This document shows, piece after piece, positions 9,222-24,176 of a stretch of DNA of 64,000 nucleotides. The notes under the pieces are model-generated. The model was given only the letters and a program-made list of their open reading frames with translations, searched no databases and was not told the DNA's origin. A program made the translations under genes and the position numbers. This DNA is from a virus. Numbering within the stretch: position 1 is the first letter of the stretch; each line of letters begins with the position of its first letter. Where the stretch lies: positions 1 to 64,000 of IMG/VR virus record IMGVR_UViG_3300005253_000063; one strand, 5' to 3'.

Positions 9222-9605
9222 TCCAGCCTCCTATATTCAACGACTTGCGCGGCCCCGGCTCTTTTTGCACCTCGGCCCTTCCGGCTTGCCCCCGCCAGTC
9301 CGATTAGAAGGGTATGAATCGACTCGACCGTTGCTCACCGTATACGACAGCTGCGGCCGGCTACTGCTGTGGTGGCAGACTCCCCTGCTCCCCCTGGGTG
9401 GTGTGAGCTTCTCGACCCGACTAACTGTTCCCCCGCGGTCGCTTGCGCCATGGTCCTCTTCAATGTTCGTTCTCTCTCCTACGACCTTGAACGCGAGCCG
9501 GGTATAGTGCCACGTGGAACAGCGCGCCGCTGGGTACGTTGCAGACATCGACCGCGCGCGTAGGTCCGCGAACGTGTCGCGGGGTGTACACGCTTCGAGC
9601 GCGTC

Positions 9606-9634
9606 TTGACGTGCGCGCGGTTCGGGGTTAGCAT
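9606..9634 (+). promoter_or_regulatory. Sigma70-type promoter for the rightward operon
   Basis: TTGACG-17 nt-TAGCAT in the divergent intergenic region, ~25 bp before ATG 9659. Confidence 0.6.
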
Positions 9635-9658
9635 CAGGCGTACCCCTTGGTGCAGTTC

Positions 9659-10441
9659 ATGTCCGCCCGCCGCATCACACGCGAATTCTACGACAAGCTG
9701 GTCGAAGCGTACCGCGAAAACCCATCGAACCATTCCAACGCGGCCACCCACGCCCTCTGTGATAGGCGAACTGCCCGTAGGGGTTGGGAAAAAGGCTGGT
9801 CCGCCGGTCGGAACCCTCTGCCCTGGGCGGGTCCGATATCGCAGCTGATCGCTGAAGAACAGACGATCGCAAGGGCGCGAGTGCTCGACGAACGCAAGCG
9901 CGCGATGGAACCGATCGTCGATGCGGAGTTGCAGACGTCGTACGACCGAGAGAAGGCCGCGAGTCAAGCGATCGACGCGCGCAAGCAAGAGGCGCAGATG
10001 ATTCGGTTGGTGCGCGCCGGCGTGACCAACGAGTTGGCGTCGGTCGCACGGATGCTCCCCGGCATTCAGAAGTGGGCCCAGGTCGCAGCAGAGCAGCTTT
10101 CGGAGACGCAGCCCGACAACCCGGCTGCTGCTGTGAAACTCATGGAGGGGTTGGCGCGCATCACCGACAATCTATCGGGAGCCGCGGACCGTTGCATGGC
10201 GATGGAGCGCAGGTTGCTCGGGGAGCCCGAGTCGATCGTGGGACTGCGCCTGCCGGACATGAGCATGGACGACGCGGTCCGACATATCGAAGCGTCGCAG
10301 CGAACGCTCGCGCGAGCGCGTAGCATGGGTCTGCTGCCGGCGGCGGAGGTTGTTGTTGACGCGGAGCTGGTTGACGAGGACGACGGGTCCGACGCAACAG
10401 ACGGAGCGCTCGCCGCGGACGATGTCAACGCGGTTGCGTGA
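9659..10441 (+). CDS. Putative terminase small subunit or HTH DNA-binding protein
   Basis: N-terminal HTH-like segment, helical middle, acidic tail; first gene of the operon containing TerL. Confidence 0.45.
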   Translation: MSARRITREFYDKLVEAYRENPSNHSNAATHALCDRRTARRGWEKGWSAGRNPLPWAGPISQLIAEEQTIARARVLDERKRAMEPIVDAELQTSYDREKAASQAIDARKQEAQMIRLVRAGVTNELASVARMLPGIQKWAQVAAEQLSETQPDNPAAAVKLMEGLARITDNLSGAADRCMAMERRLLGEPESIVGLRLPDMSMDDAVRHIEASQRTLARARSMGLLPAAEVVVDAELVDEDDGSDATDGALAADDVNAVA

Positions 10442-10830
10442 GGACGCGGTCGTCTCCAGGGGCGCATCGGCACGCGATCGACGGCTCCGGGCGGCGCGGG
10501 TAGGCTGCCTAAGTGCGCGGAATCATTACCGCGGTGACCCCTAATGATTCCCCCAACTTAGACACCCCTGATCCCCGTTCACCCCCCCTACCAATTTGCG
10601 GCAATTTTCGCGGAAAAAGTCGGCAGGGCAGTGAGTCGCGACCGAGGTGCAGCGCGGTCGGGTGATTTGCGACCGGCGCAGTTGGTCGCGAGCTGCACGT
10701 TGCGGCGGTGTAGGTTGTGGCACGACCGATTCCACACAAAAATCGCGCAGAAAATTCCCCGGGTCGGCGGTGTAGTACGACAGGCAGCGGTTGGCGTTGA
10801 AAGGCGCAGTCGGCGCGCAAGTCGGGGAAG

Positions 10831-11286
10831 ATGGGAATGAAAGCGCGCAAGCGGCGGCGTCCTCGAGGGCTGGGAGTCTGCCAGAGGCCCGACCGGGACG
10901 AGCCTCGCCTCAAGTGCGGGTATCCGCGACCCTGCCCGTGGCATTCATTAGAGATAGACCTCGGGCGGACTCCGGCGACTGTCGCGGTCCCGGTGACGGC
11001 TCTACCCGAGTCGGCGGCGGTCGCACGGGTCACGGAAGCCGCGCACGCTCTCGCAACCGAGAAGGAGAGTCCTTCGGACGAGTACGGTCGGGGCTACAAG
11101 GAGCAGCAGTTCAGGGACGAATTGAAGGACATGCACGAGCAGCGTCGGCAGCTAACAGCCCGGGTAGTTGTTCTAGAGGAGGCGCTGAAGCAAGGCATCG
11201 CCGGCCTCTCCGTAATTCCATTGCCGCACGCCGAGGACGTCGCCGACCGGATGCGCCGCGCTCTCGCCACTCAGGAGGAAAAATGA
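10831..11286 (+). CDS. Hypothetical protein (Cys/His N-terminus, coiled coil)
   Basis: CGYPRPCPWH; coupled to next gene. Confidence 0.55.
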   Translation: MGMKARKRRRPRGLGVCQRPDRDEPRLKCGYPRPCPWHSLEIDLGRTPATVAVPVTALPESAAVARVTEAAHALATEKESPSDEYGRGYKEQQFRDELKDMHEQRRQLTARVVVLEEALKQGIAGLSVIPLPHAEDVADRMRRALATQEEK

Positions 11287-11522
11287 TCAGATGGTGGAGG
11301 TTGTGGCGACTGAAGGCTTGGGAACGACATCTACGCGCAGCGCAGATCCGCATAGACGTGTTCAAGGAAAACAAATACGAGTGGGATCCCCGCCAGCGCG
11401 AGCATCGCCTGAACATGCTCGAACACGACTGCGCGCTCGCTGCGTTCGAGGTCGAGTCGCGCAAGGCGATCTTGTGGCCCGATCCGAAGCTACTGCCGTT
11501 GGCAAAGGTGCGCGATGAGTGA
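11283..11522 (+). CDS. Hypothetical protein, paralog of 6725-7000
   Basis: ATG 11283 after AGGAGG. Confidence 0.65.
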   Translation: MIRWWRLWRLKAWERHLRAAQIRIDVFKENKYEWDPRQREHRLNMLEHDCALAAFEVESRKAILWPDPKLLPLAKVRDE

Positions 11523-11615
11523 ACGATTGCATCTGGATAGCCGAATGGTGCTTACCGCCCGCCCGCCCGATACCTCATCCGTGATAGAGCTGGACGGTGG
11601 AAGATACGCGAGACG

Positions 11616-11978
11616 ATGACTGCCACCGGCTACCATCGCGGAAACTTGATGTACTTTGACAGCGCCGCGCAAGCATGGTGCTACATGGACACTGAGCAGC
11701 CGGTCGCCGACGCGCCGGACAGGCAGTGCGGGTTCTGTGGGCTCGGTAGCACGCCGGAAGGACATGACGGATGCTTGGGCGCGTTGCCGGGAGTGATGAA
11801 TGCGTGTTGCGGGCACGGACGGCAAAAAGAAGCCTACGTGCAGTTCAACCCGGACGCGCGGATCAGCGGTACCGAAGCGTTGAACTGGATCATGGCTACA
11901 ACAATCCGCCTCACCGTTCATGGGGAGGATGCGGACGAAATGCTCGACAAACCGATGTCCACCGCCGTGAAGCCGTAG
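11616..11978 (+). CDS. Hypothetical Cys-rich phage protein
   Basis: CGFCG...GHDGCLGALPGVMNACCGHG. Confidence 0.7.
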   Translation: MTATGYHRGNLMYFDSAAQAWCYMDTEQPVADAPDRQCGFCGLGSTPEGHDGCLGALPGVMNACCGHGRQKEAYVQFNPDARISGTEALNWIMATTIRLTVHGEDADEMLDKPMSTAVKP

Positions 11979-11996
11979 GTTGCGAAGGTGAAGTAG

Positions 11997-12377
11997 ATGA
12001 ACGCTCACGACACGGTGTATGCCGAGCTAGACCGACTGGAGCCCAACGTCAAGCGGACGCTGCTCCAGACCGTTTGGACCAACTACTTCGAGGCGGACTC
12101 CGAGTTACGCGCTTGGGTCCTGCGGCGGAGCGCGACTCACGGCGTTGCGGACGAGCTGCGCGCGGCGGATGCGAGATGGCGGCTTCGAGAGAAAGCCAAG
12201 CTGCGCGGCAACGTCCACTTGATTGGTTGCAAGCCGAACGGTCTGGTGACGATCATGGCTCCGCCCGCCCAACTGTCAAAGGAGAACGCGCTGGAGTTCG
12301 CTGCGCGGGTCGTCGCGATGGCGATGCCCGACGATGGCGAGTTCGAGCAGGTCCTCGATGCGGTCCGCAACACGTGA
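11997..12377 (+). CDS. Hypothetical protein with internal ADARWRL motif
   Basis: Stop TGA lies inside the first array repeat cgTGAgcc. Confidence 0.6.
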   Translation: MNAHDTVYAELDRLEPNVKRTLLQTVWTNYFEADSELRAWVLRRSATHGVADELRAADARWRLREKAKLRGNVHLIGCKPNGLVTIMAPPAQLSKENALEFAARVVAMAMPDDGEFEQVLDAVRNT

Positions 12378-12528
12378 GCCATGGGTAGAGCGGCATCCCC
12401 ACTACACAAGCGCGAGCCGATGTACACGCGACACCCCTTCGAGAGACGCGAGCCGCAGTTTTCACGATCACCCACAGTCAGAGCGCGAGCCGATCGGGTT
12501 GCGAAAAGCCGCGGTCGATGCGCAAGTC
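12373..12528 (+). repeat. TIGR-like array 1 (4 units)
   Basis: Edge repeats at 12373, 12411, 12447, 12484, 12521 with CGACACCC-like loop repeats midway. Confidence 0.8.
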
Positions 12529-12535
12529 TAAAGGC

Positions 12536-12733
12536 ATGGCCGAACCAGTACGCATCTCCGATGTGACCGTGGTCCGCGAGACGGACCTGGCACTGCTCTG
12601 CGATATCGAGGGCGAGGAATATTGGATTCCCAAGTCGCAGATCCACGATGACTCGGAGGTGTACGAAGACGGCACCGAAGGCGACCTTGTCATCAGCGCG
12701 TGGCTCGCGAAACAAAAGGATCTTGCGGGGTGA
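12536..12733 (+). CDS. Small acidic phage protein between arrays 1 and 2
   Basis: ETDLALLCDIEGEEYWIPKSQI...WLAKQK. Confidence 0.75.
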   Translation: MAEPVRISDVTVVRETDLALLCDIEGEEYWIPKSQIHDDSEVYEDGTEGDLVISAWLAKQKDLAG

Positions 12734-12734
12734 A

Positions 12735-13570
12735 CGCGAGCTGTCAACGAAGCGGTACCCTATTAGCCGACGCGAGCCGACGCCAAAGCGACAACCTAGG
12801 CAGAGACGCGAGCCACCGACTTGACGACACCCGTCCATCTGGCGCGAGCCGCAATCGTAACGTCGCCCAGAACTAAGGCGCGAGCCGCGGTTGTAGCGTC
12901 ACCCGCAGTTGCCATGCGAGCCACTTTGCGGACGACACCCTATCTTCGCGCGCGTGCCGATTGTCGTGCGACCCCCGATGGCTTCACGCGTGCCGTGCCT
13001 AATGCGTAACCCGGAGATGAGACGCGAGCCTTGGCTCAAACGGCTCCCAGTCGTCGACGCGCGAGCCATACGAGTTGCGACACCCGCTGGACCCGAGCGA
13101 GCCGTATCACACGCGCCAACCATCAAACACACGCGAGCCGGATAGGCAACGACCTCCATGCACAAAGCGCGAGCCGATCAGAGGACGTCACCCTACCAAG
13201 CGGCGCGTGCCTCTTCAACACACGACACCCGTCACAGATGCGCGAGCCCATGCTCACGCGACACCCAACGGACCTACGCGTGCCTGCAAGACTCGTTACC
13301 CGTCTTCGCAGCGCGTGCCAGATAAGAAGCGACTTCCGATGTATGAGCGCGAGCCCCAACTCCAACGACCCCCGCTGTGGTTGCGCGAGCCTTGATAGAT
13401 GCGACCTCCGTTGCTCCAACGCGAGCCGTGTCCGTATGACCCCCTATGGATCTACGCGAGTCGAAGATGTAGCGACACCCGTTCAAGCAGCACGAGCCTT
13501 CCCAAGCACGACATCCTCGCCTGCCGCGCGAGCCTTGTGAGCAGCGACACCCACGCAGCGAATGCGGGCC
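12735..13570 (+). repeat. TIGR-like array 2 (23 units of ~36 bp)
   Basis: CGCG(A/T)GCC at 12735, 12771, 12807, 12843, 12879, 12915, 12951, 12987, 13023, 13060...13527, 13563; loop repeat CGACACCC-like; two unique ~10-nt segments per unit. Confidence 0.93.
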
Positions 13571-13595
13571 AACAAACAGTCAACCGGAGGATCGA

Positions 13596-13802
13596 ATGAG
13601 TCGAACCAAGAAGGGTGTAGTTGTATCGCAAGAGCGGTCATTGCAGGGACCTGCAGGAGACGCCGAGGACGGTAAGGGCGAGTCCATCAACGTGACGGTC
13701 ATGCTCGACGAAAATTTCTCAATGCGATTCGAACTGCCGGCTGAGGAAGCGTCGGAGTGGTACGTCGGGCGGAAGGTCAAGTTGAAGTTGCAGGCGGACT
13801 GA
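13596..13802 (+). CDS. Hypothetical protein
   Basis: SD GGAGG; TGATG coupling to the methylase. Confidence 0.65.
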   Translation: MSRTKKGVVVSQERSLQGPAGDAEDGKGESINVTVMLDENFSMRFELPAEEASEWYVGRKVKLKLQAD

Positions 13803-14572
13803 TGGTCGACGTGCTGGTCGAGCTGTGTGCTGGGTCGGCGGCGTTGACGCGGTGGTGTAGCGGAGGATGGAAACTCGTTTCGTACGCGGGTGGCAAGGAC
13901 GGCTACGCGGAGATCATCGCGGACCTCATGGACCTACGGCGCGTCGAGCGAGTCCTCCTCGCGGAGCCTGGGATTTGGCACGACGTCTGGGTTGCTTTGA
14001 CGTGGGGTCTCTCGGATCGCGTCGCTGACGTGGTCGAGCAGTGGCAGTATGAGGACGCGCGGACGCTCTGGGATGCACTTCGTGGCGGTCGTGGTCAACA
14101 CGACCACGAGTGGGTCCGTGCGGCACGTGCATTGGTTCTCGTTGCGGGGACGCACGGCGGACACGAGCGCGGCGGATTCAAGGGCCTCCACGTCAACCGT
14201 CCGAGTGTCGACGGCTTCATCCCGTCGCGCGGTTCACTCGCGTGGCGGCTCCGCGAGGTACCCGAGCTTCCGCCAATCGAAGTCTTCAAGTATGCGGCCG
14301 ACGTCGAGCCGTTCGCCGGCGCCTGCGTCTACATCGATCCGCCGTACAAGGGGCGGTCGGGTTACGATCACGCGCTGACGCGGTTCGAGGTCATCGAGCT
14401 TGCGATGGCGTGGAAGAATGCGGGCGCCCGCGTCGTGGCCGTGTCGGAGGCGGCGCCTCTTCAATTCGACGACAGTTGGACGACACACGAACTCACGGCG
14501 GCTCGGCGTGGTCAGGTGCGCCGCAATTCCAGATCGGCGCAGGAGTGGTTGACGGTGTACAAGAAGACGTGA
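13802..14572 (+). CDS. DNA adenine methyltransferase (D12/Dam-like)
   Basis: ELCAGSAA, SYAGGK and catalytic YIDPPY motifs. Confidence 0.8.
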   Translation: MVDVLVELCAGSAALTRWCSGGWKLVSYAGGKDGYAEIIADLMDLRRVERVLLAEPGIWHDVWVALTWGLSDRVADVVEQWQYEDARTLWDALRGGRGQHDHEWVRAARALVLVAGTHGGHERGGFKGLHVNRPSVDGFIPSRGSLAWRLREVPELPPIEVFKYAADVEPFAGACVYIDPPYKGRSGYDHALTRFEVIELAMAWKNAGARVVAVSEAAPLQFDDSWTTHELTAARRGQVRRNSRSAQEWLTVYKKT

Positions 14573-14647
14573 GCCGTGCACGCAGCGACATCCGCACTTG
14601 CAACGCGAGCCGTGCACCCAGCGACAACCAAACGCGAAGCGCGATAC
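14568..14647 (+). repeat. TIGR-like array 3 (2 units)
   Basis: Edge repeats at 14568, 14604, 14640; loops CGACATCC and CGACAACC. Confidence 0.8.
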
Positions 14648-14657
14648 AGTCCTAGCG

Positions 14658-15104
14658 ATGGCTGACGAGCTGCCACCTTTCGATCCTGAGAAGTTCGACG
14701 GCATCGCCGTCACCCACGAGCGCCTGCTTTGCGCGCGTCACGGCGAGCCGTATCGCGCGCAGTGGCCGAAGGGTTTCGCGATCACGGTGGTCGCGCTGAT
14801 GGACTACATCTTCAAGCGTGACGACGTGGCGGCCGAGGCGCGCGAGTTGGCTGGTTGCGGGCCGGGCGACAAGCCGGAGCCGAAGGTCGTTGAGCAGGTT
14901 CTCGATCGGATTCCCGCCTGCTGCCGTGTGCACACCAAGCAGCTCCGCGAGGTCTACGTCAAAGCGAAGATCGGAACGCGTGCGCGCTGCGAGGATTGTC
15001 GACGGAAACGGTTTGGTACAAGCTACCTCTCGCAGGAGCGCGAGTTCGCGCATCTGTGCTTCGACTGCGTGCTCGACCCGGATCGCTGGAGGTCGTACAA
15101 CTGA
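14658..15104 (+). CDS. Hypothetical Cys-rich protein
   Basis: LCARHGEP...CEDC...CFDC. Confidence 0.65.
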   Translation: MADELPPFDPEKFDGIAVTHERLLCARHGEPYRAQWPKGFAITVVALMDYIFKRDDVAAEARELAGCGPGDKPEPKVVEQVLDRIPACCRVHTKQLREVYVKAKIGTRARCEDCRRKRFGTSYLSQEREFAHLCFDCVLDPDRWRSYN

Positions 15105-15217
15105 TGGGCAAACGTCTGGACTTGTTCAAGCACTTCTTCATGACCGGCTCGTTGCCGCTGCTCGTCTTCTTCATCGTCCTTGCGGTGGGGGTGCTGCTCG
15201 TGGTGTGGTTGAGGTAG
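15104..15217 (+). CDS. Small single-TM membrane protein
   Basis: LPLLVFFIVLAVGVLLVVWLR; TGATG coupling. Confidence 0.5.
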   Translation: MGKRLDLFKHFFMTGSLPLLVFFIVLAVGVLLVVWLR

Positions 15218-15218
15218 C

Positions 15219-16721
15219 TTGAGCGCACAACAGCAACGACCCGACGAGACCATGGCGGAAGTGCATGATCGTGCACGTCGACAGGTCGCGCTGCGCGTTC
15301 AGGTTGCACGTGGCAACGTCAATGAATTTTGCGAGCTGGTCCTCAAAGATGAGCAGACCGGGCAGCCGATTGAGCAGGCGTCGATCCATGAGGAATGGCA
15401 CCAGCTTGCCGAAGAGAACGATCGCGTAATCTTGTGGTCATTCACCGAAGGCGGGAAGACACAGCAGCTCTCGATCGCGCGCACGCTGCACGCGCTCGGT
15501 CGTGACACGAGCACACGCGTTGCGATCATCTCGAACACGCACGAGCAGGCGTCGAAGGTCATTCGCGCGGTCGCACACTTTATCGAGAAGTCCGAAGACT
15601 TGCGCGTGGTCTTCCCCGACCTAAAGAAGTCGGAGCCCTGGACCGGGCATCACCTCTACATCGACCGTTTGTTCCGCGCAAAAGATCCGAGCGTTCAGGC
15701 ATGCGGCGTTCACGGCGCGATCGTCGGCTCTCGCATCGATCTGCTCATCCTCGACGACATACTCGACTACGAGAACTGCCAGACCGTTGCTGCTCGCCAA
15801 GACCTTTGGGACTGGTACCACTCCGCGCTCGCCAGCCGTTTGACGGATCGCGCCCGCGTGCTCATCATTGGCACCGCGTTCCACCCCGAAGATTTGCTGC
15901 ACCGGCTCGCGGGGAATCCAGCTTGGATTGCAAAGCGCTTCCCCGTCATCTCCGACGCCGGTGTCTCCGCTTGGCCGGAGAAGTGGTCGGCGTCCCGCAT
16001 CCAGCGCCGCCGCGAGGAGCTGGGTCCGCTGGAGTTCAGCCGGCAGATGCTGTGCAAGGCGCGCGACGAGTCGCAGGCGCGGTTCCAGCGTGAGTGGATC
16101 GATCGGTGTATCGCAGAGGGCTCGGGGATGCGTCTCGTTCGTTCGCTCGCCGAGTTCGAGCAGCTCGATCCCGAGCTACACAAAATGGTCCAAGATGGGG
16201 AATGTTCAACGTACACCGGTGTCGACCTTGCGGTGCAACGCCACTCTGCGGCGGGACTCACCGTACTCTTCACGATCCTTGTCGACCCTGACGACTGTCG
16301 GCAGGTTCTTGCAATCGAAGCGGGTCGCTGGTCGGGGCCCGATATCGTTCGTCGTATCGTCGGCGCACACCAACGGTTCAACTCAGTGGTCGTTGTCGAG
16401 AACAACGCGGCGCAGGACTTCGTGCTTCAGTTCGCTCGCGAGGCGAGTGCAGTTCCGATCATGCCGTTCACTACTGGGCGCAACAAGGCGCATCCCGAGT
16501 TCGGCATCGAGTCGCTCGCGGCGGAGATGGCCGGTGGCAAGTGGCTCATCCCAAACGATGGCGGCAAGCTCGACCCCGAAGTCGAGGCATGGATCAGCGA
16601 GATGTTGTACTACGACCCGCGCTCGCACACAGGTGACCGGCTTATGGGATGCTGGTTTTCGCGCGAAGGTGCACGACTCGGCGGCCATAATTGTGCGGTG
16701 AATGCGCGGATCATCGGGTAA
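15219..16721 (+). CDS. terL: Terminase large subunit
   Basis: Walker A-like EGGKT, Walker B LLILDD, coupling motif IGT, nuclease GVDLA...VENNAAQ...HTGDRLM. Confidence 0.92.
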   Translation: MSAQQQRPDETMAEVHDRARRQVALRVQVARGNVNEFCELVLKDEQTGQPIEQASIHEEWHQLAEENDRVILWSFTEGGKTQQLSIARTLHALGRDTSTRVAIISNTHEQASKVIRAVAHFIEKSEDLRVVFPDLKKSEPWTGHHLYIDRLFRAKDPSVQACGVHGAIVGSRIDLLILDDILDYENCQTVAARQDLWDWYHSALASRLTDRARVLIIGTAFHPEDLLHRLAGNPAWIAKRFPVISDAGVSAWPEKWSASRIQRRREELGPLEFSRQMLCKARDESQARFQREWIDRCIAEGSGMRLVRSLAEFEQLDPELHKMVQDGECSTYTGVDLAVQRHSAAGLTVLFTILVDPDDCRQVLAIEAGRWSGPDIVRRIVGAHQRFNSVVVVENNAAQDFVLQFAREASAVPIMPFTTGRNKAHPEFGIESLAAEMAGGKWLIPNDGGKLDPEVEAWISEMLYYDPRSHTGDRLMGCWFSREGARLGGHNCAVNARIIG

Positions 16722-16748
16722 AAAGCGCGAAGTTCGTACAAGTCAAAC

Positions 16749-17045
16749 GTAGAGCCGTAGCACTTGCGGCGACCGAAGTTCCGACGCGAGCCATGAGGGA
16801 TTCGACAACCAGTCATTGAAATGCGAGCCGACCAGAGGACGTCATCCACGCCACGAGTGCGAGCCTTGTCTCAAACGTTCTCCAAAGAAGATGCGCGAGC
16901 CTTCGTACCGACGTCGCCCGCTATCTCTGCGCGAGCCGATCAGCGCGGGCCAACCATGGATGGATTGCGAGCCGAACACTTTGCGTCGACCGTCGCCATA
17001 ACGCGAGCCGCATGCTTCACGACATCCAATAGACGAGCGCGAGCC
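16749..17045 (+). repeat. TIGR-like array 4 (8 units)
   Basis: Edge repeats at 16749, 16785, 16822, 16858, 16894, 16930, 16966, 17002, 17038. Confidence 0.9.
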
Positions 17046-17046
17046 G

Positions 17047-17304
17047 ATGACTGCTTACTTCCCCGGCACCCTACGTTGCGATGAGTGCGGTGAGATGCGC
17101 ACTGCGAAGTTCGCGCTCACGAGCAGGGGAGTAACGGTCGTGCCGAGCATGCTGATAGACAGTTGGACGGCGGTCGAGAACCCGAGGACGCCGCTCGAAC
17201 CAACGCCGATGCTCTGTTCCGACAAGTGTCTCTTGGCCCACGACGCGCGCAAACGTCTTACGTCGGAGGTCATCGCCGGGCGCGTGGAGATCAAGAAGGC
17301 GTGA
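17047..17304 (+). CDS. Hypothetical zinc-binding protein with HDARKRL motif
   Basis: CDEC...CSDKC; ATG directly follows the last edge repeat. Confidence 0.6.
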   Translation: MTAYFPGTLRCDECGEMRTAKFALTSRGVTVVPSMLIDSWTAVENPRTPLEPTPMLCSDKCLLAHDARKRLTSEVIAGRVEIKKA

Positions 17305-17666
17305 TCGAACTAGTCTCAACCCTCTGTGTCGACTGCGGTGCACCGGTCGGCCCCGACGAGCAGCAGTGTGCGGAATGTTCCGACGCGCGGGATGCCCGTT
17401 GGCGTCTTGACGGGATGGAGCCAGACGAGGGTGCGCAGATTGTCTGCGACCACGTCACCAACAGTATCCTTCGTCTATGCAAAGATGGCGTGCTTCGCCA
17501 CGATCTCCTTGGTCGGCTCTTCGTACACTTCAAGAAGTGGCACCCGGAGATCGAAAGTATTGAGAGCGACCATGACGTCTTGAGAGACGCGCTCATCTTG
17601 CGCGTGAAGTTGTACGGTAAGCCCGCCGTAGAAACGTTGGTCCTTAGTCGGGAGCTATTTCAATGA
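17301..17666 (+). CDS. Hypothetical zinc-ribbon protein with RDARWRL motif
   Basis: GTG overlap; CVDCG...CAEC. Confidence 0.6.
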   Translation: MIELVSTLCVDCGAPVGPDEQQCAECSDARDARWRLDGMEPDEGAQIVCDHVTNSILRLCKDGVLRHDLLGRLFVHFKKWHPEIESIESDHDVLRDALILRVKLYGKPAVETLVLSRELFQ

Positions 17667-18076
17667 GCGAACCGCAACACGCCAACCTGTCGCTCGACTT
17701 CGACTTTGTCTCTTGCTACCGGTGCGGCTCACCGATCTGGATGGAGACGTGGATTCTGAAGAAGCGCAGGAACGACCATCAGGATTTTTACTGCTACAAC
17801 GGTCATCGCCAATCGTTCTCCGGCGAGACCGACGCTGCGCGTCTGAAGCGACAGCTTGAAACTGAACGCGGCAAGACGCGGATGGCACGCGACGAAGTCG
17901 GCAATGAGCGGCGCCGCGCTGACCACCTAGGGCGTAGTCGCGACGTATACAAAGGCAAATTGAAGGCGACGAAGCAGCGCATCAAGAACGGCGTGTGTCC
18001 GTGCTGCAAGCGTACGTTCAGGGACCTTCACGACCATATGAGGACGAAGCATCCGGCCTATGGCGGGCAAGCCTGA
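17663..18076 (+). CDS. Zinc-finger/coiled-coil phage protein
   Basis: CYRCG...FYCYNGH...CPCCKRTF..L..HMRTKHP (C2H2). Confidence 0.75.
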   Translation: MSEPQHANLSLDFDFVSCYRCGSPIWMETWILKKRRNDHQDFYCYNGHRQSFSGETDAARLKRQLETERGKTRMARDEVGNERRRADHLGRSRDVYKGKLKATKQRIKNGVCPCCKRTFRDLHDHMRTKHPAYGGQA

Positions 18077-18353
18077 CCGTGCTGCGCGTGAGGCCGAGCT
18101 ACGCCTCGGCGGTGTCGACATCCCGTCGGGCTTCGTGAGCCTCGACGAACTTGCCGACAACGTCCGCGCGATCTCCCAGGCGGTTGGCAAGGTGCTCAAC
18201 AATGGTCCGCTCACGCGGCGGGCGATCGAGGTGCTGCTCCTGGACCACCTACCCAACCGCGGGCCGCAGAAGGTTGGCCTTCGTGCGCTTCAGCAAGTGC
18301 TCGACGTGCTCAGCGAGCTTGAAGAGTTGGTGCTCCTCAAGCCTAATGACTAG
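18060..18353 (+). CDS. Hypothetical protein
   Basis: 97-aa ORF; stop lies in the first unit of array 5. Confidence 0.6.
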   Translation: MAGKPDRAAREAELRLGGVDIPSGFVSLDELADNVRAISQAVGKVLNNGPLTRRAIEVLLLDHLPNRGPQKVGLRALQQVLDVLSELEELVLLKPND

Positions 18354-18708
18354 CGTCGCCCAGTTCTATCACGCGGGCTGAAGATCATGCGCCAACCGAA
18401 GGAAGGGCGCGGGCCATAGGAGACGGGACACCCGAACGCACACGCGGCGCTGTATACCTCACGGCACCCTAACAAGTAGCGCGAGCCGCAGTCTCGACGA
18501 CACCCGAAATACAAACGCGAGCCTAATGACTAGCGGTCACCCGAATGAGCTACGCGAGCCGACGAAGAAGGCGCCACCCAGATGTCCTAGGCGGGTCATG
18601 AAAACGCTGACGCGCGATCAAGTCGTGGGATAGCGCCGCCGGTGTAATGCCGCCCATGGATGATGCGCGCGCCGGACGAATCACGACGCCCTTTGAAAGG
18701 AGCGAACC
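18336..18708 (+). repeat. TIGR-like array 5 (~10 units, partly degenerate), directly upstream of tasA
   Basis: Edge repeats at 18336, 18372, 18408, 18444, 18480, 18516, 18553, 18590, 18666; last repeat abuts ATG 18709. Confidence 0.85.
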
Positions 18709-19650
18709 ATGCCGCCGAAGCGAGTGAACCCAGCAATCGCCTCCGACCGTACTCGAGAGCAGACACGTCTTGGGTTGAAGAAGAAGGTCCGCATGTTCTA
18801 CGACCTGCAGCGGATGCGGCTGCAGTGCGGCGGACGGATTCAACCGAAGGCCGAGGGTAACGAGATCCAGCTTCACGAAGTCGACCAGGTGATCTTGGAA
18901 AACCGCGCGAAGGAGTTGCTCATCGCGGAGAAGGCCGCGCTGCGCGATGTCCAGGACCACCTCAAGACGATGCTCTTCTACACCGAGATCCTCAGCGACA
19001 AGTCGCGCTTCAAGGGACTCGGTCCGACAATGGCCGGTGTTATCCTCAGCGAGTTCGACATCGCACGCGAGGATACCGCTTCGCAAATGTGGGCGTTCGC
19101 CGGACTCGCTCCGGTACCGGCGCAGCGTTGCAAGAAGTGCAACCACCTCGTCGAGCCGGTCAAGGACGCCGACCGCTTCAAGCACGCCGTCAAGAAGGAA
19201 GCACACTGCGGGGTCGACGTGCTTCAGCGGTCGGCGATCTACGACAGCGGCAAGTCGATGCGACCGAAGCGCGGTGAGAAGCTGCCGTACAACGCGTTCC
19301 TGAAGACGAAGCTCGTCGGTGTTCTCGGGCCGTGTCTCATCAAAGCGAACTCGCCGTGGCGCAAGTTGTACGACGACTACAAGCATCGCAAGGCCAGCGC
19401 GGGCTGGGGCACGGGCGACGCGCACCGACACCATGCGGCGATCCGCTACATGGTCAAGCAGCTCCTCCTCGCGATCTGGAAGGACTGGCGCGCGTTCGAG
19501 GACTTGCCTGTCCGTCCGTCGTACCAAGAGGAGAAGCTCGGGCACACGCACGAGGCCACCGCTGTCGGCAGCAACGGCAAGTCGAGCGCCGACGTCGAGG
19601 CGTTGATGGACTCACCCGAGGTCGAGGAAGAGCTGGCGAACGCGCTGTAA
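18709..19650 (+). CDS. tasA: TIGR-associated Nop-domain protein, TasA type (IS110 C-terminal-like, no RuvC/HNH)
   Basis: Coiled-coil N-terminus then KGLGPTMAGVILSEFDI...ASQMWAFAGL...KRGEKLPYNAFLKTKL...HRHHAAIRYMVK..L..IW..WR; no DEDD domain; 36-bp arrays on both sides. Confidence 0.82.
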   Translation: MPPKRVNPAIASDRTREQTRLGLKKKVRMFYDLQRMRLQCGGRIQPKAEGNEIQLHEVDQVILENRAKELLIAEKAALRDVQDHLKTMLFYTEILSDKSRFKGLGPTMAGVILSEFDIAREDTASQMWAFAGLAPVPAQRCKKCNHLVEPVKDADRFKHAVKKEAHCGVDVLQRSAIYDSGKSMRPKRGEKLPYNAFLKTKLVGVLGPCLIKANSPWRKLYDDYKHRKASAGWGTGDAHRHHAAIRYMVKQLLLAIWKDWRAFEDLPVRPSYQEEKLGHTHEATAVGSNGKSSADVEALMDSPEVEEELANAL

Positions 19651-19862
19651 TGGAGGCGGCACCCGGTCCTCACGCGCGAGCCGTTGGCACTACGACAACC
19701 GTCCCGCTGACGCGAGCCGTTCTCCTCACGCCGCCCGTGGTACTCGCGCGCGCCTCACCACTTGCGCCGCCCTCTACTGACACGCGAGCCATAGCAGATA
19801 CGACGACCACTCGATCTACGCGAGCCGTTCTGAAAGCGTCGCCCGAAGTCCTAGCGCGCTTC
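19639..19862 (+). repeat. TIGR-like array 6 (6 units), directly downstream of tasA
   Basis: Edge repeats at 19639 (degenerate), 19675, 19711, 19747, 19783, 19819, 19855; exact 36-bp period. Confidence 0.9.
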
Positions 19863-20164
19863 TAACTCATCGCGCCGTCGCTGGGCACCCAACACTGACG
19901 CGTGTCCGGCTCCCACTCCATTCCGTCCAGCTCTGCGCGCAGGTACGCGGGCAGGTGGTCGAGGATGCGCTGGAGGCCCCAGTCGAGATCGCCGCGCAGC
20001 TCTTTGAAGATGCGCGTACAAATTTCGAAGCGTCGTTTGATCTCCGCCATCGTCTGCGGACCCTGGTCTACGATGAAGCTCCCAAAGATGACGCGCTCGA
20101 ATCCGCCGACCACGATCCCGAGATCGCGAGGGTTGCTCATCAGCGCGGCTAGCGTTCCAGTCAT
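19862..20164 (-). CDS. Hypothetical protein
   Basis: SD GGAGG; last gene of the portal block. Confidence 0.7.
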   Translation of the reverse strand: MTGTLAALMSNPRDLGIVVGGFERVIFGSFIVDQGPQTMAEIKRRFEICTRIFKELRGDLDWGLQRILDHLPAYLRAELDGMEWEPDTRQCWVPSDGAMS

Positions 20165-20167
20165 GGA

Positions 20168-21235
20168 TCAAACCTCCGGGACTACCGTACTACGGCAAAA
20201 ACCATGCAGCGGAGGCTGTTGGATGCCGTTCTTCTCCAGGCCCTTGTCCGACATCGTGTTGGTGTAGGTACCGATCTTGTCGGCCTCGCCGAAGCCCGGC
20301 TCTTGTACCACACCGATGCTCTGCTGCGATCCGTCCTCACGTTCGAACGCCATGACGTCGCGGCCCTTCGAATCTTTGCGGTCGCGGACCCAGGGGAGCG
20401 CAGCCTTGACCTTGTCCGAGTCGCGTTCGCCGCGCACGCTGTCCAGTCGCTTGAGACCCGAGTCGACGGTGAACGTCTTCTCGTGCATGAATCGACAAAC
20501 CTCGGTCGTCGCCTCGTCGAGGACGGCTTCGAAGATGTAGCGATCGAGTCCGGCCTCCTTGAAGGAAAGCAGGCTCGATGTTGTACGCGCTCGGTTCACG
20601 AACGACGACGCGATGACCTGCCAATACGATTTGCTTTGTCTCAACGAGGACGCGGTGAGTTTGCTTTGGAGTTGTTCGGCGATGGCCTTGCGCCCGAGTC
20701 CTCGTTCGAGTCCGTCGGAGACGATGCGTCTTGCCTGTGCGGAGAAGTTCTGTCGCCGCAAGCCGAGCTGGTCGGTGATGAAGTTGGCTTGGCTGCGCGC
20801 GAGTTCGCGCGTCGCGCGTCGGTCGACGAGCCGGGTCGCGCTTTGGATCTTCAGTCGGAACCGTCGCTTGACCGCCTTCCGCGTCTGGCCGACCACGCGA
20901 GTTCCCGACACTTCGAAGACTTTGTCCACCTTCGGCAGGATCGCCTTCGGCAGCGGCGCAAGTGACCTTGTCGCTGCCGTGACGGCTCGTGCGCGTTGAG
21001 CCGCGCTAAGATTTGGCCAGTCAACGTCAAGCCGTTTCAGCGCGGCGCGCAGCACCTTCGCTTCGTCCCCCGCCGTCGCGCGTTTCAGGCTTCGCGAGAG
21101 ACGGTTGACGATCGTGAGGAAGTCGCCGCGGTTCGTTGGGTTGAGGGCCTTCGCGACATCGAGGTGATAGACGTCGCTGAGTATCTCCTCGATCGCAGCG
21201 GCGCCGTCCTCGTAGAGGTCAGTCAGGCTCTCCAT
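20168..21235 (-). CDS. Head morphogenesis protein (Mu gpF / SPP1 gp7 family)
   Basis: AVLDEATTEVCRFMH...PPLHGFCRSTVVP; follows portal; likely start ATG 21235. Confidence 0.85.
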   Translation of the reverse strand: MESLTDLYEDGAAAIEEILSDVYHLDVAKALNPTNRGDFLTIVNRLSRSLKRATAGDEAKVLRAALKRLDVDWPNLSAAQRARAVTAATRSLAPLPKAILPKVDKVFEVSGTRVVGQTRKAVKRRFRLKIQSATRLVDRRATRELARSQANFITDQLGLRRQNFSAQARRIVSDGLERGLGRKAIAEQLQSKLTASSLRQSKSYWQVIASSFVNRARTTSSLLSFKEAGLDRYIFEAVLDEATTEVCRFMHEKTFTVDSGLKRLDSVRGERDSDKVKAALPWVRDRKDSKGRDVMAFEREDGSQQSIGVVQEPGFGEADKIGTYTNTMSDKGLEKNGIQQPPLHGFCRSTVVPEV

Positions 21236-24119
21236 CGTCCGCTTCGTCCTTCGCGGCGAGGAACTCGTCCTCGGCCTGTCGTCGCTCTTCCGCGCGGATC
21301 GCGTCTCGAACCTTGATGAGGTGTGCGGCCTGCGCGACGAGACGCCGCTTCCCGATTGACGGCGGGACCTGTGGTCGCCGACGGGCTTGCTCTGGGTTGA
21401 GTAGCCCACCTTCCTCGGCGAGGTCCTGGACCGTGAGGTCGGCCTTGTCTCCACCCCTGTCCGGTTCCTCGCCAGGCCCGGCCCCAACGACTGAAAGCTG
21501 CAACGGCTGTTCGGTCCAGAACGCATCGATGCGTTTGAACTCTCGGTTGAAGACGTCCTCGGCAAGCTGCCGCGCCTCGCTTGGCACGATCGCACCGGCG
21601 CGCAGCAGCGTTGCGATCATCTCGGTCAGCTGCGCCGCGTCCTTTGTGATCGGACCGTTCGAACGGAAGCGCCAGAACCGGATCCCCATGTCGGTGAGGA
21701 TCTTGCGGTTGATGATGAAGTCGAACTCCTCGCGCTCCGGTTGGAAGACCTGCGCCTCGGCGAAGACCAACGCCGCTTGAGCTGTGTTACCCTGCACGGC
21801 GACTTTACCGTTGCGGCGAGTGACGTAGAACCCGTACTCTGGTACGGAGAAGCAGTACACTCGGCCTTGGTAGTGTACCCGCTCCGGCAGGTCACGGAAC
21901 TCGGCGTCGCGGCCCACCGAGATCAACACGCGCCAACATGCGCGCCGGTTGTCGTGCGCGGCGTAGTGCAGCGACAGCGTAGCACGGTGACCGAGTCGGA
22001 GCGCGAGCACCTGTACGTCGTCGCACAGGCCGCGAGACACCGAAGGATAGAACCCGCTGTTGCGGCCCGGTCTCGAATCCCAGTGTCCGTCGCCCGCCAT
22101 CAGAGCATTGAACAAGATTCGCGTCTGCTCGGGACACAGATCGCGGGCGATGTCCGGGATCCGCTTCGAGCCAGAGTCCGAGCCGCAGTGCTCGCGCAGC
22201 CACGACGACAGGCACCGGTTGCTCAGCTGCCACCGACGCATCTCGGCGACCTCGTCGCAGCTCTCAGAGAAGGCCCATCCGGTTCGCTTCAAGCACGCGC
22301 GGATCGCGTCGGCCGTCCCACCGTCACGCTGGCTCAAGGTCACGAGGTACGGTGCGCTCGGGTGATTCGTACTCAGGAGCGACCCCTCGCTGAGCCAGTA
22401 ACCGAGAAAGGCCACGAAGTCGTCGCCGGCTACGCTCGACACATGGTCGTGCCCTCGCTCGATCTGGCACCCGTCGTCCTTGGGCAGCGTGAAGCCGTCA
22501 AGCCGCGTGCCGTCGGCGTGCCCCACCGTGGTCTTGAGCGCGTAGCGCGGCCACGGAATCGACTGCGACGCGTGGACCTCGAACCGCTCAGCGCCGAGTG
22601 GGCGCGCGAGCATCCGGTGATCTTCGGTCACCATCACGTCGGCGACCGCAGATCGGAAGTGCAGCAGCTCCTCATCCACCTCGTACACGTGCAGCGCATC
22701 GGGTCTCGTGAACTCAACATTGTCCTGGCCCGGGTGGTACGCGGCGATCTCGTCGTCGTCGCGGAACTGATCGAGCCGCAGCCACCCCCGCCGCGTGAGC
22801 GTCTCCGTGCGCTCGTCGTAGCAGGCGCGGTTGAAGTCGCGGATGTCACCGCGGAGCATTCGCGGCAGGCGGAAGCTCATTCCGACCTTATCGATGTTGC
22901 GCTCGTCGTACTTCTGGAACAACGCGTCCTGGTAGATCGCTTGCGTCAGCGGCTTGAGTTCGATTTTCATCTTGCCGCCGCCGGCAGTCGCGTCGCTCTC
23001 GCCTTCGAGCACGAGAATTTTGTGGAAGTTGCGTCGACCCTTCGATGCGTTCTTGACGTGATCCTCTACCCTGCTGATCGTCTCTGACGACACGCGTCCG
23101 CCCGACACGAGCATGACCATCGGGGGGATCGACTTGTTCTCGAAGTAGAGGAAGTTCACCTCTTCACTCTGGCGCGAGCCCATGACCGAGAGCAGGTTGC
23201 CGATCCAACGTGGCGTGCCGTACGCTGAGCGTGGGTTGTGAATCTTGAAGTGTAGGACCTCGTGGGCGGGTCCGTCCATCGGGTCGTTCTTCTTCAGCGC
23301 CTCAACATCCTTGAACTCCTTGCCGGTCTTGCGCGAGATGACCCGTGGGTCGCCGAGTTCCTTGAACCAGACCGACTTCCCTTCGACTACCTGGACCAGC
23401 TTGCGGAACTGTCGCTGCATCTTGATCGTATCGAATTCAAGATCGGAGATTTTGATCTTGGTTTCGACGTCAACCGCTGTTGCGTCGAGCGACAGCAGGC
23501 GCATGGTGTAGCCGGGGATGTAATTGAACTGCGCGATCTCCCCGGCGCCGTTGCGAATGATTTCCCAGTAGGCGTTGCCCAGGACTTCGATGTCTTGCCG
23601 CATTCGTCTGCGTAGTGAGACGAAGCTCACGTCCGCGCAGCAGAACTCGAAGAAGTTGACGAGCTTTGATTTCTCGCGTCGCATGAGGTCGTGCAGTTCG
23701 ATGATCTTCGCGTCCACCTCTTCCTTGGTGGGATCCAGGTTCTCGAACGTGGTTTCTTCGCCGGCTTCTTGCTGCCGCAGTCGTTCGATGTAGATCGCGT
23801 TCGCGATTTGCGCGGGCGCCTCGTCGGATTCGAGGTTGATCACTGGCTCGAACTTGTGGCCGAAGCCGTCGATGTTGGTGACGTAAGCGTCGATGTTCTG
23901 GCGGAGCGCGTTCGAATGCTCCAGCAGTAGGCACAGCGTCTCGGGGTCGAATGGCGGCTCGATCGCGCCGAGCTGCGAGAACGTTCGTGCCAGCTCGTCT
24001 TCGCGTACCTGGACCGCGTTCGGCTGCTCAACGTCGTCCCGACCAACCAGGTGTGCCTTGACGAGCGGAACCACGTCCGCCAGCTCAGCTACGGCTGCGT
24101 TCACGTCCTCCTGCTTCAT
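21219..24119 (-). CDS. Portal protein (PBSX-like) containing an intein
   Basis: LGNAYWEIIRNGAGEI, EVLHFK, YGTPRW, FRLPRML; intein interrupts DFNRA|TAQAA. Confidence 0.9.
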   Translation of the reverse strand: MKQEDVNAAVAELADVVPLVKAHLVGRDDVEQPNAVQVREDELARTFSQLGAIEPPFDPETLCLLLEHSNALRQNIDAYVTNIDGFGHKFEPVINLESDEAPAQIANAIYIERLRQQEAGEETTFENLDPTKEEVDAKIIELHDLMRREKSKLVNFFEFCCADVSFVSLRRRMRQDIEVLGNAYWEIIRNGAGEIAQFNYIPGYTMRLLSLDATAVDVETKIKISDLEFDTIKMQRQFRKLVQVVEGKSVWFKELGDPRVISRKTGKEFKDVEALKKNDPMDGPAHEVLHFKIHNPRSAYGTPRWIGNLLSVMGSRQSEEVNFLYFENKSIPPMVMLVSGGRVSSETISRVEDHVKNASKGRRNFHKILVLEGESDATAGGGKMKIELKPLTQAIYQDALFQKYDERNIDKVGMSFRLPRMLRGDIRDFNRACYDERTETLTRRGWLRLDQFRDDDEIAAYHPGQDNVEFTRPDALHVYEVDEELLHFRSAVADVMVTEDHRMLARPLGAERFEVHASQSIPWPRYALKTTVGHADGTRLDGFTLPKDDGCQIERGHDHVSSVAGDDFVAFLGYWLSEGSLLSTNHPSAPYLVTLSQRDGGTADAIRACLKRTGWAFSESCDEVAEMRRWQLSNRCLSSWLREHCGSDSGSKRIPDIARDLCPEQTRILFNALMAGDGHWDSRPGRNSGFYPSVSRGLCDDVQVLALRLGHRATLSLHYAAHDNRRACWRVLISVGRDAEFRDLPERVHYQGRVYCFSVPEYGFYVTRRNGKVAVQGNTAQAALVFAEAQVFQPEREEFDFIINRKILTDMGIRFWRFRSNGPITKDAAQLTEMIATLLRAGAIVPSEARQLAEDVFNREFKRIDAFWTEQPLQLSVVGAGPGEEPDRGGDKADLTVQDLAEEGGLLNPEQARRRPQVPPSIGKRRLVAQAAHLIKVRDAIRAEERRQAEDEFLAAKDEADDGEPD
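21786..22823 (-). mobile_element. Intein (346 aa) with LAGLIDADG homing endonuclease
   Basis: Starts CYDERTETLTRRGW; block B VTEDHRM; FLGYWLSEGS and LMAGDGH; ends VYCFSV...VTRRNGKVAVQGN followed by Thr. Confidence 0.9.
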
Positions 24120-24176
24120 CCCGCACAAGACCCTAGCACGGTTTGGTATTTCGCCGCGATACTCGCGGAGGCCCTG

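What the first reader, a model, noticed from the sequence alone, without database searches (positions are those of the whole stretch)
11997..19862. Guide arrays are interleaved with the packaging operon and overlap gene boundaries
Seen: array pieces fill the gaps between genes, including directly after terL. Stop codons lie inside repeats (cgTGAgcc at 12375 and 14570) or spacers (TAG 18351, TAA 19648), and ATG 17047 follows an edge repeat by one base. A 65-aa gene (12536-12733) separates arrays 1 and 2 like an insertion. Inference: guide maturation would cut the polycistronic mRNA carrying the methylase, terL and tasA, coupling guide production to mRNA segmentation. The repeats may also act as recombination sites that capture or shuffle small gene cassettes.
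Basis: partly seen in the sequence, partly recalled or inferred. Interest (0 to 1): 0.75.

Follow-up and report, generated by a model that had tools for sequence, protein, structure and literature searches.

The report
Guide arrays woven through phage operon
A 118-kb sediment phage carries a known kind of RNA-guided system (TIGR-TasA) whose guide arrays fill every gap between a run of same-strand genes and overlap their ends, so making the guides would probably cut the messenger RNA apart, which has not been tested.

Summary
About 50-52 units of 36 nt (rCGCGAGCC-N9-rCGaCaxCC-N9) form six same-strand arrays. They fill all six real intergenic gaps of a co-oriented gene block (11997-19862) that includes a DPPY methylase, terL and a nuclease-less tas gene. 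All six quoted codon positions check out.

This is a dual-repeat TIGR-TasA system, a kind described in 2025. The arrangement is unusual. I found no sigma-70-type promoter or intrinsic terminator next to any array, although the same scan finds both around the Salicola phage CGphi29 tasH module. TasA keeps the Tyr/His pair that cleaves pre-tigRNA in SpTasH.

Across about 100 related arrays, conservation of the end repeats places the cut between edge positions 5 and 6. In 19 of 105 arrays the upstream gene's stop codon sits at that point. Split and widely scattered arrays recur in other phage contigs.

mRNA segmentation is therefore plausible but unproven, because no RNA data exist. The gene-cassette recombination idea is poorly supported: no close relatives exist, no cassette homologs occur near other arrays, and composition is flat. 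Half-guides (spacer A) are, however, shared between units more than chance allows.

Verdict: a new variant of a known kind, of moderate interest.

The parts
11997..12377 (+). 126-aa gene of unknown function. Its TGA (12375-12377) lies inside the first edge repeat of array 1.
   Evidence: no Pfam or PHROG match
12372..12528 (+). TIGR array 1: 4 units plus terminal edge repeat GCGCAAGTC (12520-12528)
   Evidence: sequence
12536..12733 (+). 65-aa gene (phrog_8389). It starts 7 nt after the array 1 terminal edge, and its TGA abuts the array 2 first edge.
   Evidence: E 2.5e-8; homologs in 4 array-less TerL-related loci
12734..13570 (+). TIGR array 2: 23 units plus terminal edge ATGCGGGCC (13562-13570)
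13596..13802 (+). 68-aa gene with a GGAGGA ribosome-binding site. Its stop overlaps the start of the next gene.
13802..14572 (+). 256-aa putative DNA methyltransferase (DPPY motif). Its TGA (14570-14572) lies inside the first edge repeat of array 3.
   Evidence: phrog_56, E 1.4e-4, weak; IDPPYKG in the translation
14567..14647 (+). TIGR array 3: 2 units plus 3'-truncated edge GCGCGATAC
14658..15104 (+). 148-aa Cys-rich gene of unknown function with no obvious ribosome-binding site
   Evidence: no family
15104..15217 (+). 37-codon hydrophobic ORF that fills the only gap without TIGR units
   Evidence: read; not otherwise tested
15252..16721 (+). Large terminase subunit (terL); an alternative TTG start lies at 15219
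   Evidence: phrog_38, E 8.6e-58
16748..17045 (+). TIGR array 4: 8 units plus a full terminal edge GCGCGAGCC (17037-17045)
17047..18353 (+). Four overlapping small genes (17047-17304, 17301-17666, 17663-18076 = phrog_33336, 18060-18353). The first has no ribosome-binding site. The last ends inside the first unit of array 5.
18335..18700 (+). TIGR array 5: 7 units (18335-18587) and 2 degenerate units (18629-18700). The last spacer B holds the tasA ribosome-binding site AAAGGAG.
18709..19650 (+). tasA: 313-aa Nop-type Tas protein without a nuclease domain. It has Y272/H279 and a 45-aa CxxC...HC insertion at about residues 134-178.
19638..19862 (+). TIGR array 6: 6 units plus truncated edge GCGCGCTTC. 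It abuts the stop (19862-19864) of a convergent - strand gene.

Best explanation
This is a dual-repeat TIGR-TasA system in which the guide array has been broken into six same-strand pieces. The pieces occupy all intergenic space of one roughly 8-kb co-oriented gene block.

The most likely mechanism is as follows. The arrays have no transcription signals of their own and are read as part of the polycistronic RNA. TasA dimers bind each 36-nt unit and use the Tyr/His pair to cut every edge repeat between positions 5 and 6 (xCGCG|AGCC). This releases AGCC-spacerA-loop-spacerB-xCGCG guides and necessarily splits the transcript into five gene-bearing segments.

At two junctions the cut would fall inside the upstream stop codon (TG|A, for the 126-aa gene and the methylase). 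At one junction in the block it would leave a 5-nt leader before an ATG that lacks a ribosome-binding site (17047). At a two-unit array 95 kb away it would leave a 4-nt leader.

Status of each step. Shown: array anatomy, gene overlaps, Tas identity, conservation of the catalytic pair. Inferred: co-transcription, the exact cut position, and any effect on expression.
For: - Array anatomy and statistics.
- Tas identity: Pfam Transposase_20 at 1.5e-6, phrog_4285 at 2e-28, the solved TasR 9mty at 2e-8 and SpTasH at 6e-7.
- Catalytic pair: Y272/H279 align with SpTasH Y289/H296. The Tyr is kept in 27 of 27 and the His in 25 of 27 aligned Tas proteins.
- Transcription signals: no promoter-like site lies at any array border. 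Terminator-like sites number 7 against 9.4 expected in 9500-21500, with none at an array end. Only four runs of four or more T occur in 11900-19900, and none follows an array. As a positive control, the same scan finds TTGACA-17-TATAGT before tasH and a hairpin plus T-run after the array in phage CGphi29.
- Strand bias: AT skew is mostly positive over 9600-19600 and is negative beyond 20000, as expected for one + strand unit.
- Cut position: terminal edges are conserved at positions 1-5 (0.76-0.82) but not at 6-9 (0.33-0.53), n=95. First edges show the reverse, 0.38-0.49 at positions 1-5 against 0.83-0.91 at 6-9, n=87. [quoted passage not shown]
- Stop codons: the stop of an open frame of at least 60 codons begins at edge positions 3-5 in 19 of 105 non-redundant array starts. 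Elsewhere the rate is 0.61 per offset.
Against: - No RNA run holds this DNA, so nothing about transcripts has been observed.
- The host is unknown. Its promoters and terminators may not fit the sigma-70 or hairpin-plus-T-run consensus, and promoters could sit inside upstream coding sequence.
- A crude strand-concordance test across related arrays is only mildly biased: 60 same-strand against 36 opposite, with 69 unclear.
- TaTasR needs a host RNase (PMC12045711 discussion), so self-processing by this TasA is inferred from conserved residues only.
- The cut site is inferred from conservation and was not measured.
- First edges of A4-A6 are degenerate, so not every junction need be cut.
- The enrichment of ATG directly after terminal edges is weak: 8 of 130 arrays, about 3-fold, and the measure favours early positions.
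- Three of the 19 stop-in-edge cases come from closely related loci.
Confidence: 0.6

Rival explanations
1. The arrays are independent small transcription units. Each is driven by a promoter hidden in the 3' end of the upstream gene or in a spacer. Their tight packing against genes reflects only genome compaction, and the mRNAs of neighbouring genes are not substrates.
For: - The canonical CGphi29 module has its own promoter and terminator.
- Published arrays typically end with a terminator (PMC12045711, section 4).
- The 2026 preprint states that sequence alone cannot decide co-transcription (10.64898/2026.09.09.750476, discussion).
- The host's promoter type is unknown.
Against: - Seven arrays would need seven promoters inside coding sequence.
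- No terminator follows any array.
- Any transcript of an upstream gene must run into the first edge repeat, because its stop codon lies within or after that repeat.
- Even with separate promoters, read-through RNA would still carry cleavable full edge repeats.
Confidence: 0.25
2. The interleaving is mainly a product and tool of recombination. Edge repeats act as crossover sites that insert, delete or shuffle gene cassettes between array pieces.
For: - Gene blocks are bounded by edge repeats on both sides.
- Near-identical spacer A halves with unrelated spacer B occur between arrays 2 and 4 and within arrays 3 and 5: 4 pairs with at most 1 mismatch against 0.31 expected, reached by 1 of 1000 column shuffles.
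- The same pattern holds in 30 other loci: 14 against 1.9 expected.
- The last codons and stop of gene 18060-18353 share a 15-nt string with unit 18515.
- The module sits where terL and portal are convergent. In 10 of 10 relatives that have a detectable portal, the two genes are co-directional.
Against: - No cassette gene has a homolog next to arrays in the 103 array-bearing loci.
- Homologs of the 65-aa gene lie in array-less phages.
- GC content is flat.
- Contigs of three DNA runs show no length or cassette variants.
- End repeats across the family keep only the half that a terminal guide needs. Processing constraints predict this; crossover footprints do not.
- No close relative was available for a boundary comparison.
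Confidence: 0.1
3. The scattered pieces are decaying or selfish intergenic repeats that are no longer used as guides.
For: - Several units are degenerate (scores of 5-18 bits).
- No target was found in the phage's own genome.
Against: - About 30 units score at least 24 bits and keep exact 36-nt register.
- tasA is intact and keeps its catalytic residues.
- Spacers are diverse.
- Absence of self-targets is expected for a system aimed at other DNA.
Confidence: 0.05

Closest known systems
Dual-repeat TIGR-TasA systems (Faure et al. 2025, PMC12045711; sections 4-7 and 10 read)
   Same: - 36-nt units made of edge repeat, 9-nt spacer A, loop repeat and 9-nt spacer B.
- A Nop-type Tas protein without a nuclease domain.
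- Carried by a phage.
- Arrays lie upstream and downstream of tas.
- First edges are 5'-truncated and last edges 3'-truncated.
   Different: - There are six arrays rather than one or two, spread over 7.5 kb and separated by non-tas genes (methylase, terL, small genes). A two-unit array also lies 95 kb away.
- No terminator follows any array.
- Stop codons of non-tas genes are embedded in full-length first edges.
SpTasH module of Salicola phage CGphi29 (NC_020844; PMC13421893 passages)
   Same: - It lies inside a co-directional run of phage structural genes.
- The Tyr/His processing pair is conserved.
- The repeat logic is the same.
   Different: - CGphi29 is an autonomous cassette: promoter, tasH, one array, terminator.
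- The effector carries an HNH nuclease.
tasParB-tasA loci, and intragenic or flanking arrays reported by TIGRFinder (PMC12045711 section 44; 10.64898/2026.09.09.750476 sections 5, 10-13 read)
   Same: - Arrays can lie upstream of, downstream of and between genes of one operon, or overlap the tas coding sequence.
- A possible coupling of guide maturation to tas translation has been suggested in print.
   Different: - Those reports concern tas itself and its partner gene.
- Here unrelated phage genes, including terL, are the flanking and overlapped genes.
- In related contigs arrays lie 45-94 kb from tas.
Self-processing CRISPR effectors (Cas12a, Cas13) and clustered polycistronic snoRNAs. This comparison is recalled knowledge and is also cited in the papers above.
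   Same: The effector or a partner excises many short guides from one long precursor.
   Different: Here the precursor would also be the mRNA of essential phage genes.

Membership tests
TIGR dual-repeat array | Two alternating short repeats (8-12 nt) separated by spacers of about 9 nt, giving a 36-nt period | tested here: met
   The unit is rCGCGAGCC-N9-rCGaCaxCC-N9. Spacing between successive in-register units is 35-38 nt and mostly 36.
TIGR dual-repeat array | Variable spacers between conserved repeats | tested here: met
   Information content is about 0-0.4 bit at spacer columns against 0.5-2.0 at repeat columns.
TIGR dual-repeat array | Association with a tas gene | tested here: met
   tasA at 18709-19650 is flanked by arrays 5 and 6.
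TIGR dual-repeat array | [quoted passage not shown] | tested here: not met
   Truncated or full terminal edges are present, but no terminator follows any of the six arrays. The positive control is found in CGphi29.
TIGR dual-repeat array | Transcription and processing into 36-nt tigRNAs | not testable with these tools
   No RNA run holds the stretch.
TasA (Nop-only Tas protein) | C-terminal Nop-type RNA-binding domain related to the IS110 RNA-binding domain | tested here: met
   PF02371 at 1.5e-6; TasR 9mty at 2e-8 and TasH at 6e-7.
TasA (Nop-only Tas protein) | No N-terminal HNH or RuvC nuclease domain | tested here: met
   Query residues 29-133 align to TasR residues 120-211, which leaves only 28 N-terminal residues. 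No nuclease family was found. The fold was not predicted.
TasA (Nop-only Tas protein) | Tyr/His processing pair of dual-repeat Tas proteins | tested here: met
   RPSYQEEKLGHT aligns with SpTasH RPLYVQEKLGHT. Alignment of 27 sequences.
TasA (Nop-only Tas protein) | RNA-guided DNA binding or repression | not testable with these tools
   No target was found in the phage's own genome beyond chance. The host is unknown.

The most novel reading that the evidence does not exclude
Guide maturation doubles as a post-transcriptional switch for phage genes. TasA cutting at junction edge repeats would split the stop codons of the methylase and the 126-aa gene (TG|A), turning them into non-stop messages. 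It would also release downstream messages with 0-5-nt leaders for genes that lack ribosome-binding sites. Rising TasA levels would thereby re-programme expression of the block that holds terL. The same stop-in-first-edge design in 19 of 105 related arrays, often with tas itself upstream, would then be a family-wide feedback device. Separately, sharing of half-guides (spacer A) between units hints that TIGR arrays diversify by repeat-mediated shuffling of half-units, which bears on the open question of how these arrays gain spacers.
Probability: 0.2. Interest if true: 0.8.

Novelty: new variant of a known kind. Interest (0 to 1): 0.55.

Why it matters
TIGR-Tas biology has open questions that the field states itself: whether tas and the arrays are co-transcribed, what TasA does in phages, and how arrays arise and grow.

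This locus is a natural test case. Co-transcription is almost forced by the anatomy, and processing would have a measurable consequence for essential genes (terL, a methylase).

The family-wide results give concrete, cheap experiments:
- the conservation-derived cut point (positions 5|6);
- stop codons placed on that cut point;
- arrays tens of kilobases from tas;
- shared half-guides.

The results also suggest that array finders which look only around tas miss part of the guide repertoire.

Tried and rejected
- Close relatives for a cassette-boundary comparison. blastn of the 7.9-kb stretch against 50,697 phage records found no match. TerL-based scans gave 59 viral and 80 metagenome loci, with at most 58-59% identity over the full length (66% over one 121-residue fragment). 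None has arrays: 0 chained hits in 885 kb and in 708 kb. Peaks in lag-36 autocorrelation in those loci were collagen-like or low-complexity coding repeats.
- Closest Tas. The nearest relative (56% identity, a 101.7-kb record) has no TerL relative, and its single array lies 45 kb from tas. It is not syntenic.
- RNA evidence. No RNA holder is listed.
- DNA runs. The three DNA runs, probably the source sample, were laid as contigs and showed no variants in or near the arrays.
- Self-targeting. For 53 guides, both strand arrangements and gaps of 0-2, I found 0 hits with at most 1 mismatch and 1 hit with 2 mismatches (mispaired controls give about 1 per arrangement). With 3 mismatches there were 33 hits against about 25 in controls. 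Rejected.
- Targets in public collections. Not searched, because 18-nt matches are expected by chance there.
- Rfam. 0 matches at E up to 1.
- Strand concordance of arrays with flanking long open frames. Only a weak bias; the method is crude in GC-rich DNA.
- Start codons after terminal edges. Enrichment is weak.
- Distal mini-array. The TAG in its first edge does not end a long ORF.
- Composition. No foreign-DNA signal.
- Structure prediction, complex prediction and the large protein searches were not run. The sequence matches to solved TasR and TasH were judged sufficient.
- Literature. Three full-text searches found no description of arrays interleaved with terL or other non-tas phage genes. 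I read only the sections named above. Supplements are closed, and table S1 and figures S4 and S14 of PMC12045711 may show such loci.

Full report
**What is there.**
The window is the first 64 kb of a 118,354-bp virus record with direct terminal repeats. DNA runs that hold it come from marine sediment metagenomes.

Between 12372 and 19862 the + strand carries 36-nt units of the form rCGCGAGCC-N9-rCGaCaxCC-N9. The core pattern occurs 46 times in the window against 6.8 +/- 2.6 in shuffles, and 0 of 100 shuffles reach 46. A weight matrix gives 47 + strand hits against 1 - strand hit, and 45 of the 47 lie in 12303-19853.

In register, the units form six arrays:
- A1 12372-12528, 4 units
- A2 12734-13570, 23 units
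- A3 14567-14647, 2 units
- A4 16748-17045, 8 units
- A5 18335-18587, 7 units, plus 2 degenerate units up to 18700
- A6 19638-19862, 6 units

A further two-unit array lies on the - strand at 114062-114142 of the genome. It ends ACGCGAGCC directly followed by the ATG of an 85-aa gene.

**Genes.**
All genes of the block are on the + strand:
- a 126-aa gene;
- a 65-aa gene (phrog_8389);
- a 68-aa gene;
- a 256-aa DPPY protein with a weak methyltransferase match (phrog_56, 1.4e-4);
- a 148-aa Cys-rich protein;
- a 37-codon hydrophobic ORF;
- terL (phrog_38, 8.6e-58);
- four overlapping small genes;
- a 313-aa Tas protein.

Arrays cover 86-100% of all six real intergenic gaps.

One correction is needed. 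Portal (Pfam Phage_portal, 2.2e-14, with a LAGLIDADG domain) and a Mu-F-like head protein lie on the - strand and converge on array 6. In 10 of 10 TerL-related loci with a detectable portal, portal follows terL on the same strand. The block therefore contains terL but is not a classical packaging operon.

**Identity.**
The anatomy is that of dual-repeat TIGR arrays (PMC12045711, section 4).

The protein matches Pfam Transposase_20, the solved TasR 9mty (2e-8) and SpTasH (6e-7). Only 28 residues precede the region that aligns with TasR residues 120 onward. It is therefore a nuclease-less TasA, with a 45-residue CxxC...HC insertion.

SpTasH cleaves pre-tigRNA with Y289 and H296 (PMC13421893 passages). 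Dual-repeat Tas proteins are reported to conserve this pair (10.64898/2026.09.09.750476, section 10). The window protein has Y272 and H279 in the aligned motif RPSYQEEKLGHT. In my alignment of 27 Tas proteins the Tyr is kept in 27 and the His in 25.

**Transcription signals.**
Between 9500 and 21500 the consensus scan finds no promoter-like site at an array border. It finds 7 terminator-like sites against 9.4 expected, and none lies at an array end. Only four runs of four or more T occur in 11900-19900, and none follows an array.

The same scan on Salicola phage CGphi29 finds a near-perfect promoter before tasH and a hairpin plus T-run right after its array. The canonical module is therefore autonomous, and this one looks embedded.

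AT skew is mostly positive from 9600 to about 19600 and negative beyond 20000.

This is indirect evidence. The host and its promoter type are unknown, and no RNA data exist.

**Where the cut should fall.**
A pattern scan of viral contigs returned 103 stretches from 82 contigs, and I mapped arrays in them.

Terminal edge repeats match their locus consensus at positions 1-5 (0.76-0.82) but not at 6-9 (0.33-0.53), n=95. First edges match at positions 6-9 (0.83-0.91) but not at 1-5 (0.38-0.49), n=87.

[quoted passage not shown] It gives AGCC-A-loop-B-xCGCG = 36 nt. This cut site is inferred, not measured.

**A family-wide junction design.**
In 19 of 105 non-redundant array starts, the stop codon of an open frame of at least 60 codons begins at edge position 3, 4 or 5 (xxxxTAGCC, xxxTAAGCC, xxxTGAGCC). 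Elsewhere between -100 and +40 the rate is 0.61 per offset. Three of the 19 come from closely related loci.

Many of these upstream frames are tas genes ending ...GH.DYIPPP. In the window the same junction is used by two non-tas genes, and the first edge is kept nearly full length (ACGTGAGCC, 8 of 9). The predicted cut would fall at TG|A.

At the other end, some arrays run into a start codon within 0-5 nt of the predicted cut. There are 8 such cases among 130 arrays, including 17047 and the distal array. The enrichment is weak.

**Scattered arrays are common.**
Sixty of the 82 contigs have at least one array by my matrix, 29 have two or more, and 10 have three or more. Gaps of about 70-110 nt are probably missed units. 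In 19 contigs at least one gap exceeds 290 nt.

One 105.9-kb record has 12 arrays on both strands over 94 kb, with its tas near 88 kb. The closest Tas relative (56% identity) has its array 45 kb from tas. A 72-kb record shows array-tas-array-genes-array.

The published catalogue looked around tas loci. It reports arrays upstream of, downstream of, flanking or inside tas, and between tasParB and tasA. In the sections I read I found no description of arrays interleaved with terL or other unrelated genes, or tens of kilobases from tas. Three searches were made, and supplements could not be seen.

**Recombination.**
No relative is close enough to compare cassette boundaries. None of the block's 10 non-tas, non-terL genes has a homolog in the 103 array-bearing loci. 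The 65-aa gene's four homologs lie in array-less TerL relatives. GC content is flat, and contigs of three runs show no variants. The cassette idea is therefore unsupported.

Half-units, however, are reused. In the window, four spacer A pairs differ by at most 1 base, against 0.31 expected, and 1 of 1000 column shuffles reaches this. Their spacer B partners are unrelated, and spacer B shows no such excess.

In 30 other loci there are 14 such spacer A pairs against 1.9 expected. Spacer B gives 6 against 2.3, and only one pair shares both halves.

The end of gene 18060-18353 and unit 18515 share GCCTAATGACTAGCG. Shared target half-sites are an alternative reading that I cannot exclude.

**Targets.**
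None of the 53 guides matches the phage's own genome better than mispaired or reversed controls.

**Verdict.**
The system is a member of a known kind (TIGR-TasA). Its operon-embedded, gene-overlapping, multi-piece layout is a variant that I did not find described.

The mRNA-segmentation inference is the best-supported mechanism (about 0.6) but rests on anatomy and conserved residues. The cassette-capture inference is weak (about 0.1).

My counts agree.

Noticed in passing
window 20171-24128 (- strand) relative to 15252-16721: Portal (with a LAGLIDADG domain, possibly an intein or homing endonuclease insertion) and the Mu-F-like head protein are convergent with terL. In 10 of 10 TerL relatives with a detectable portal, the order terL-portal-MuF-gX is co-directional. 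The TIGR/tasA module sits at this apparent inversion junction.
   Followed up: partly
G000 114062-114142, - strand (outside the window): A two-unit TIGR mini-array lies 95 kb from tasA. Its full terminal edge ACGCGAGCC is directly followed by the ATG of an 85-aa gene (114061-113804).
   Followed up: partly
window arrays 2-5, and loci L118, L131, L134 and others: Near-identical spacer A halves, often with the same loop-repeat variant, are paired with unrelated spacer B halves. This is enriched over column shuffles in the window (4 against 0.31) and in 30 other loci (14 against 1.9). It may bear on how TIGR arrays diversify.
   Followed up: partly
window 18709-19650, residues about 134-178: TasA has a 45-residue insertion relative to solved TasR, with CKKC...HC. 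It may be a zinc knuckle. The protein was not folded.
   Followed up: no
window 15104-15217: A 37-codon strongly hydrophobic ORF (MGKRLDLFKHFFMTGSLPLLVFFIVLAVGVLLVVWLR) overlaps the stop of the 148-aa gene just upstream of terL.
   Followed up: no
window 11997-12377, 17047-17304, 17301-17666; G000 114061-113804: Small proteins of the array-interleaved block carry D-A-R-x-R-L (DARWRL twice, DARKRL, DARLRL). This matches a motif that other notes of this scan report across the genome.
   Followed up: no
window 12484-12523: The degenerate last unit of array 1 folds into a stable hairpin (-17.0 kcal/mol, beyond the 5th percentile of random 40-nt windows). It lies just upstream of the 65-aa gene and has no T-run.
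   Followed up: no
L248 (Ralstonia phage phiRSL1, record 14217-15643): An annotated 'transposase' that matches the window's TasA at 32% identity is followed by a 1.4-kb stretch without annotation. This is a likely unannotated TIGR array in a cultured jumbo phage. I did not inspect it.
   Followed up: no
L129 (contig of 159,872 bp): A 24-residue fragment, 78% identical to the TasA C-terminal processing motif (PVRPSYHEEKLGHVHG), lies near arrays. It may be a tas remnant.
   Followed up: no
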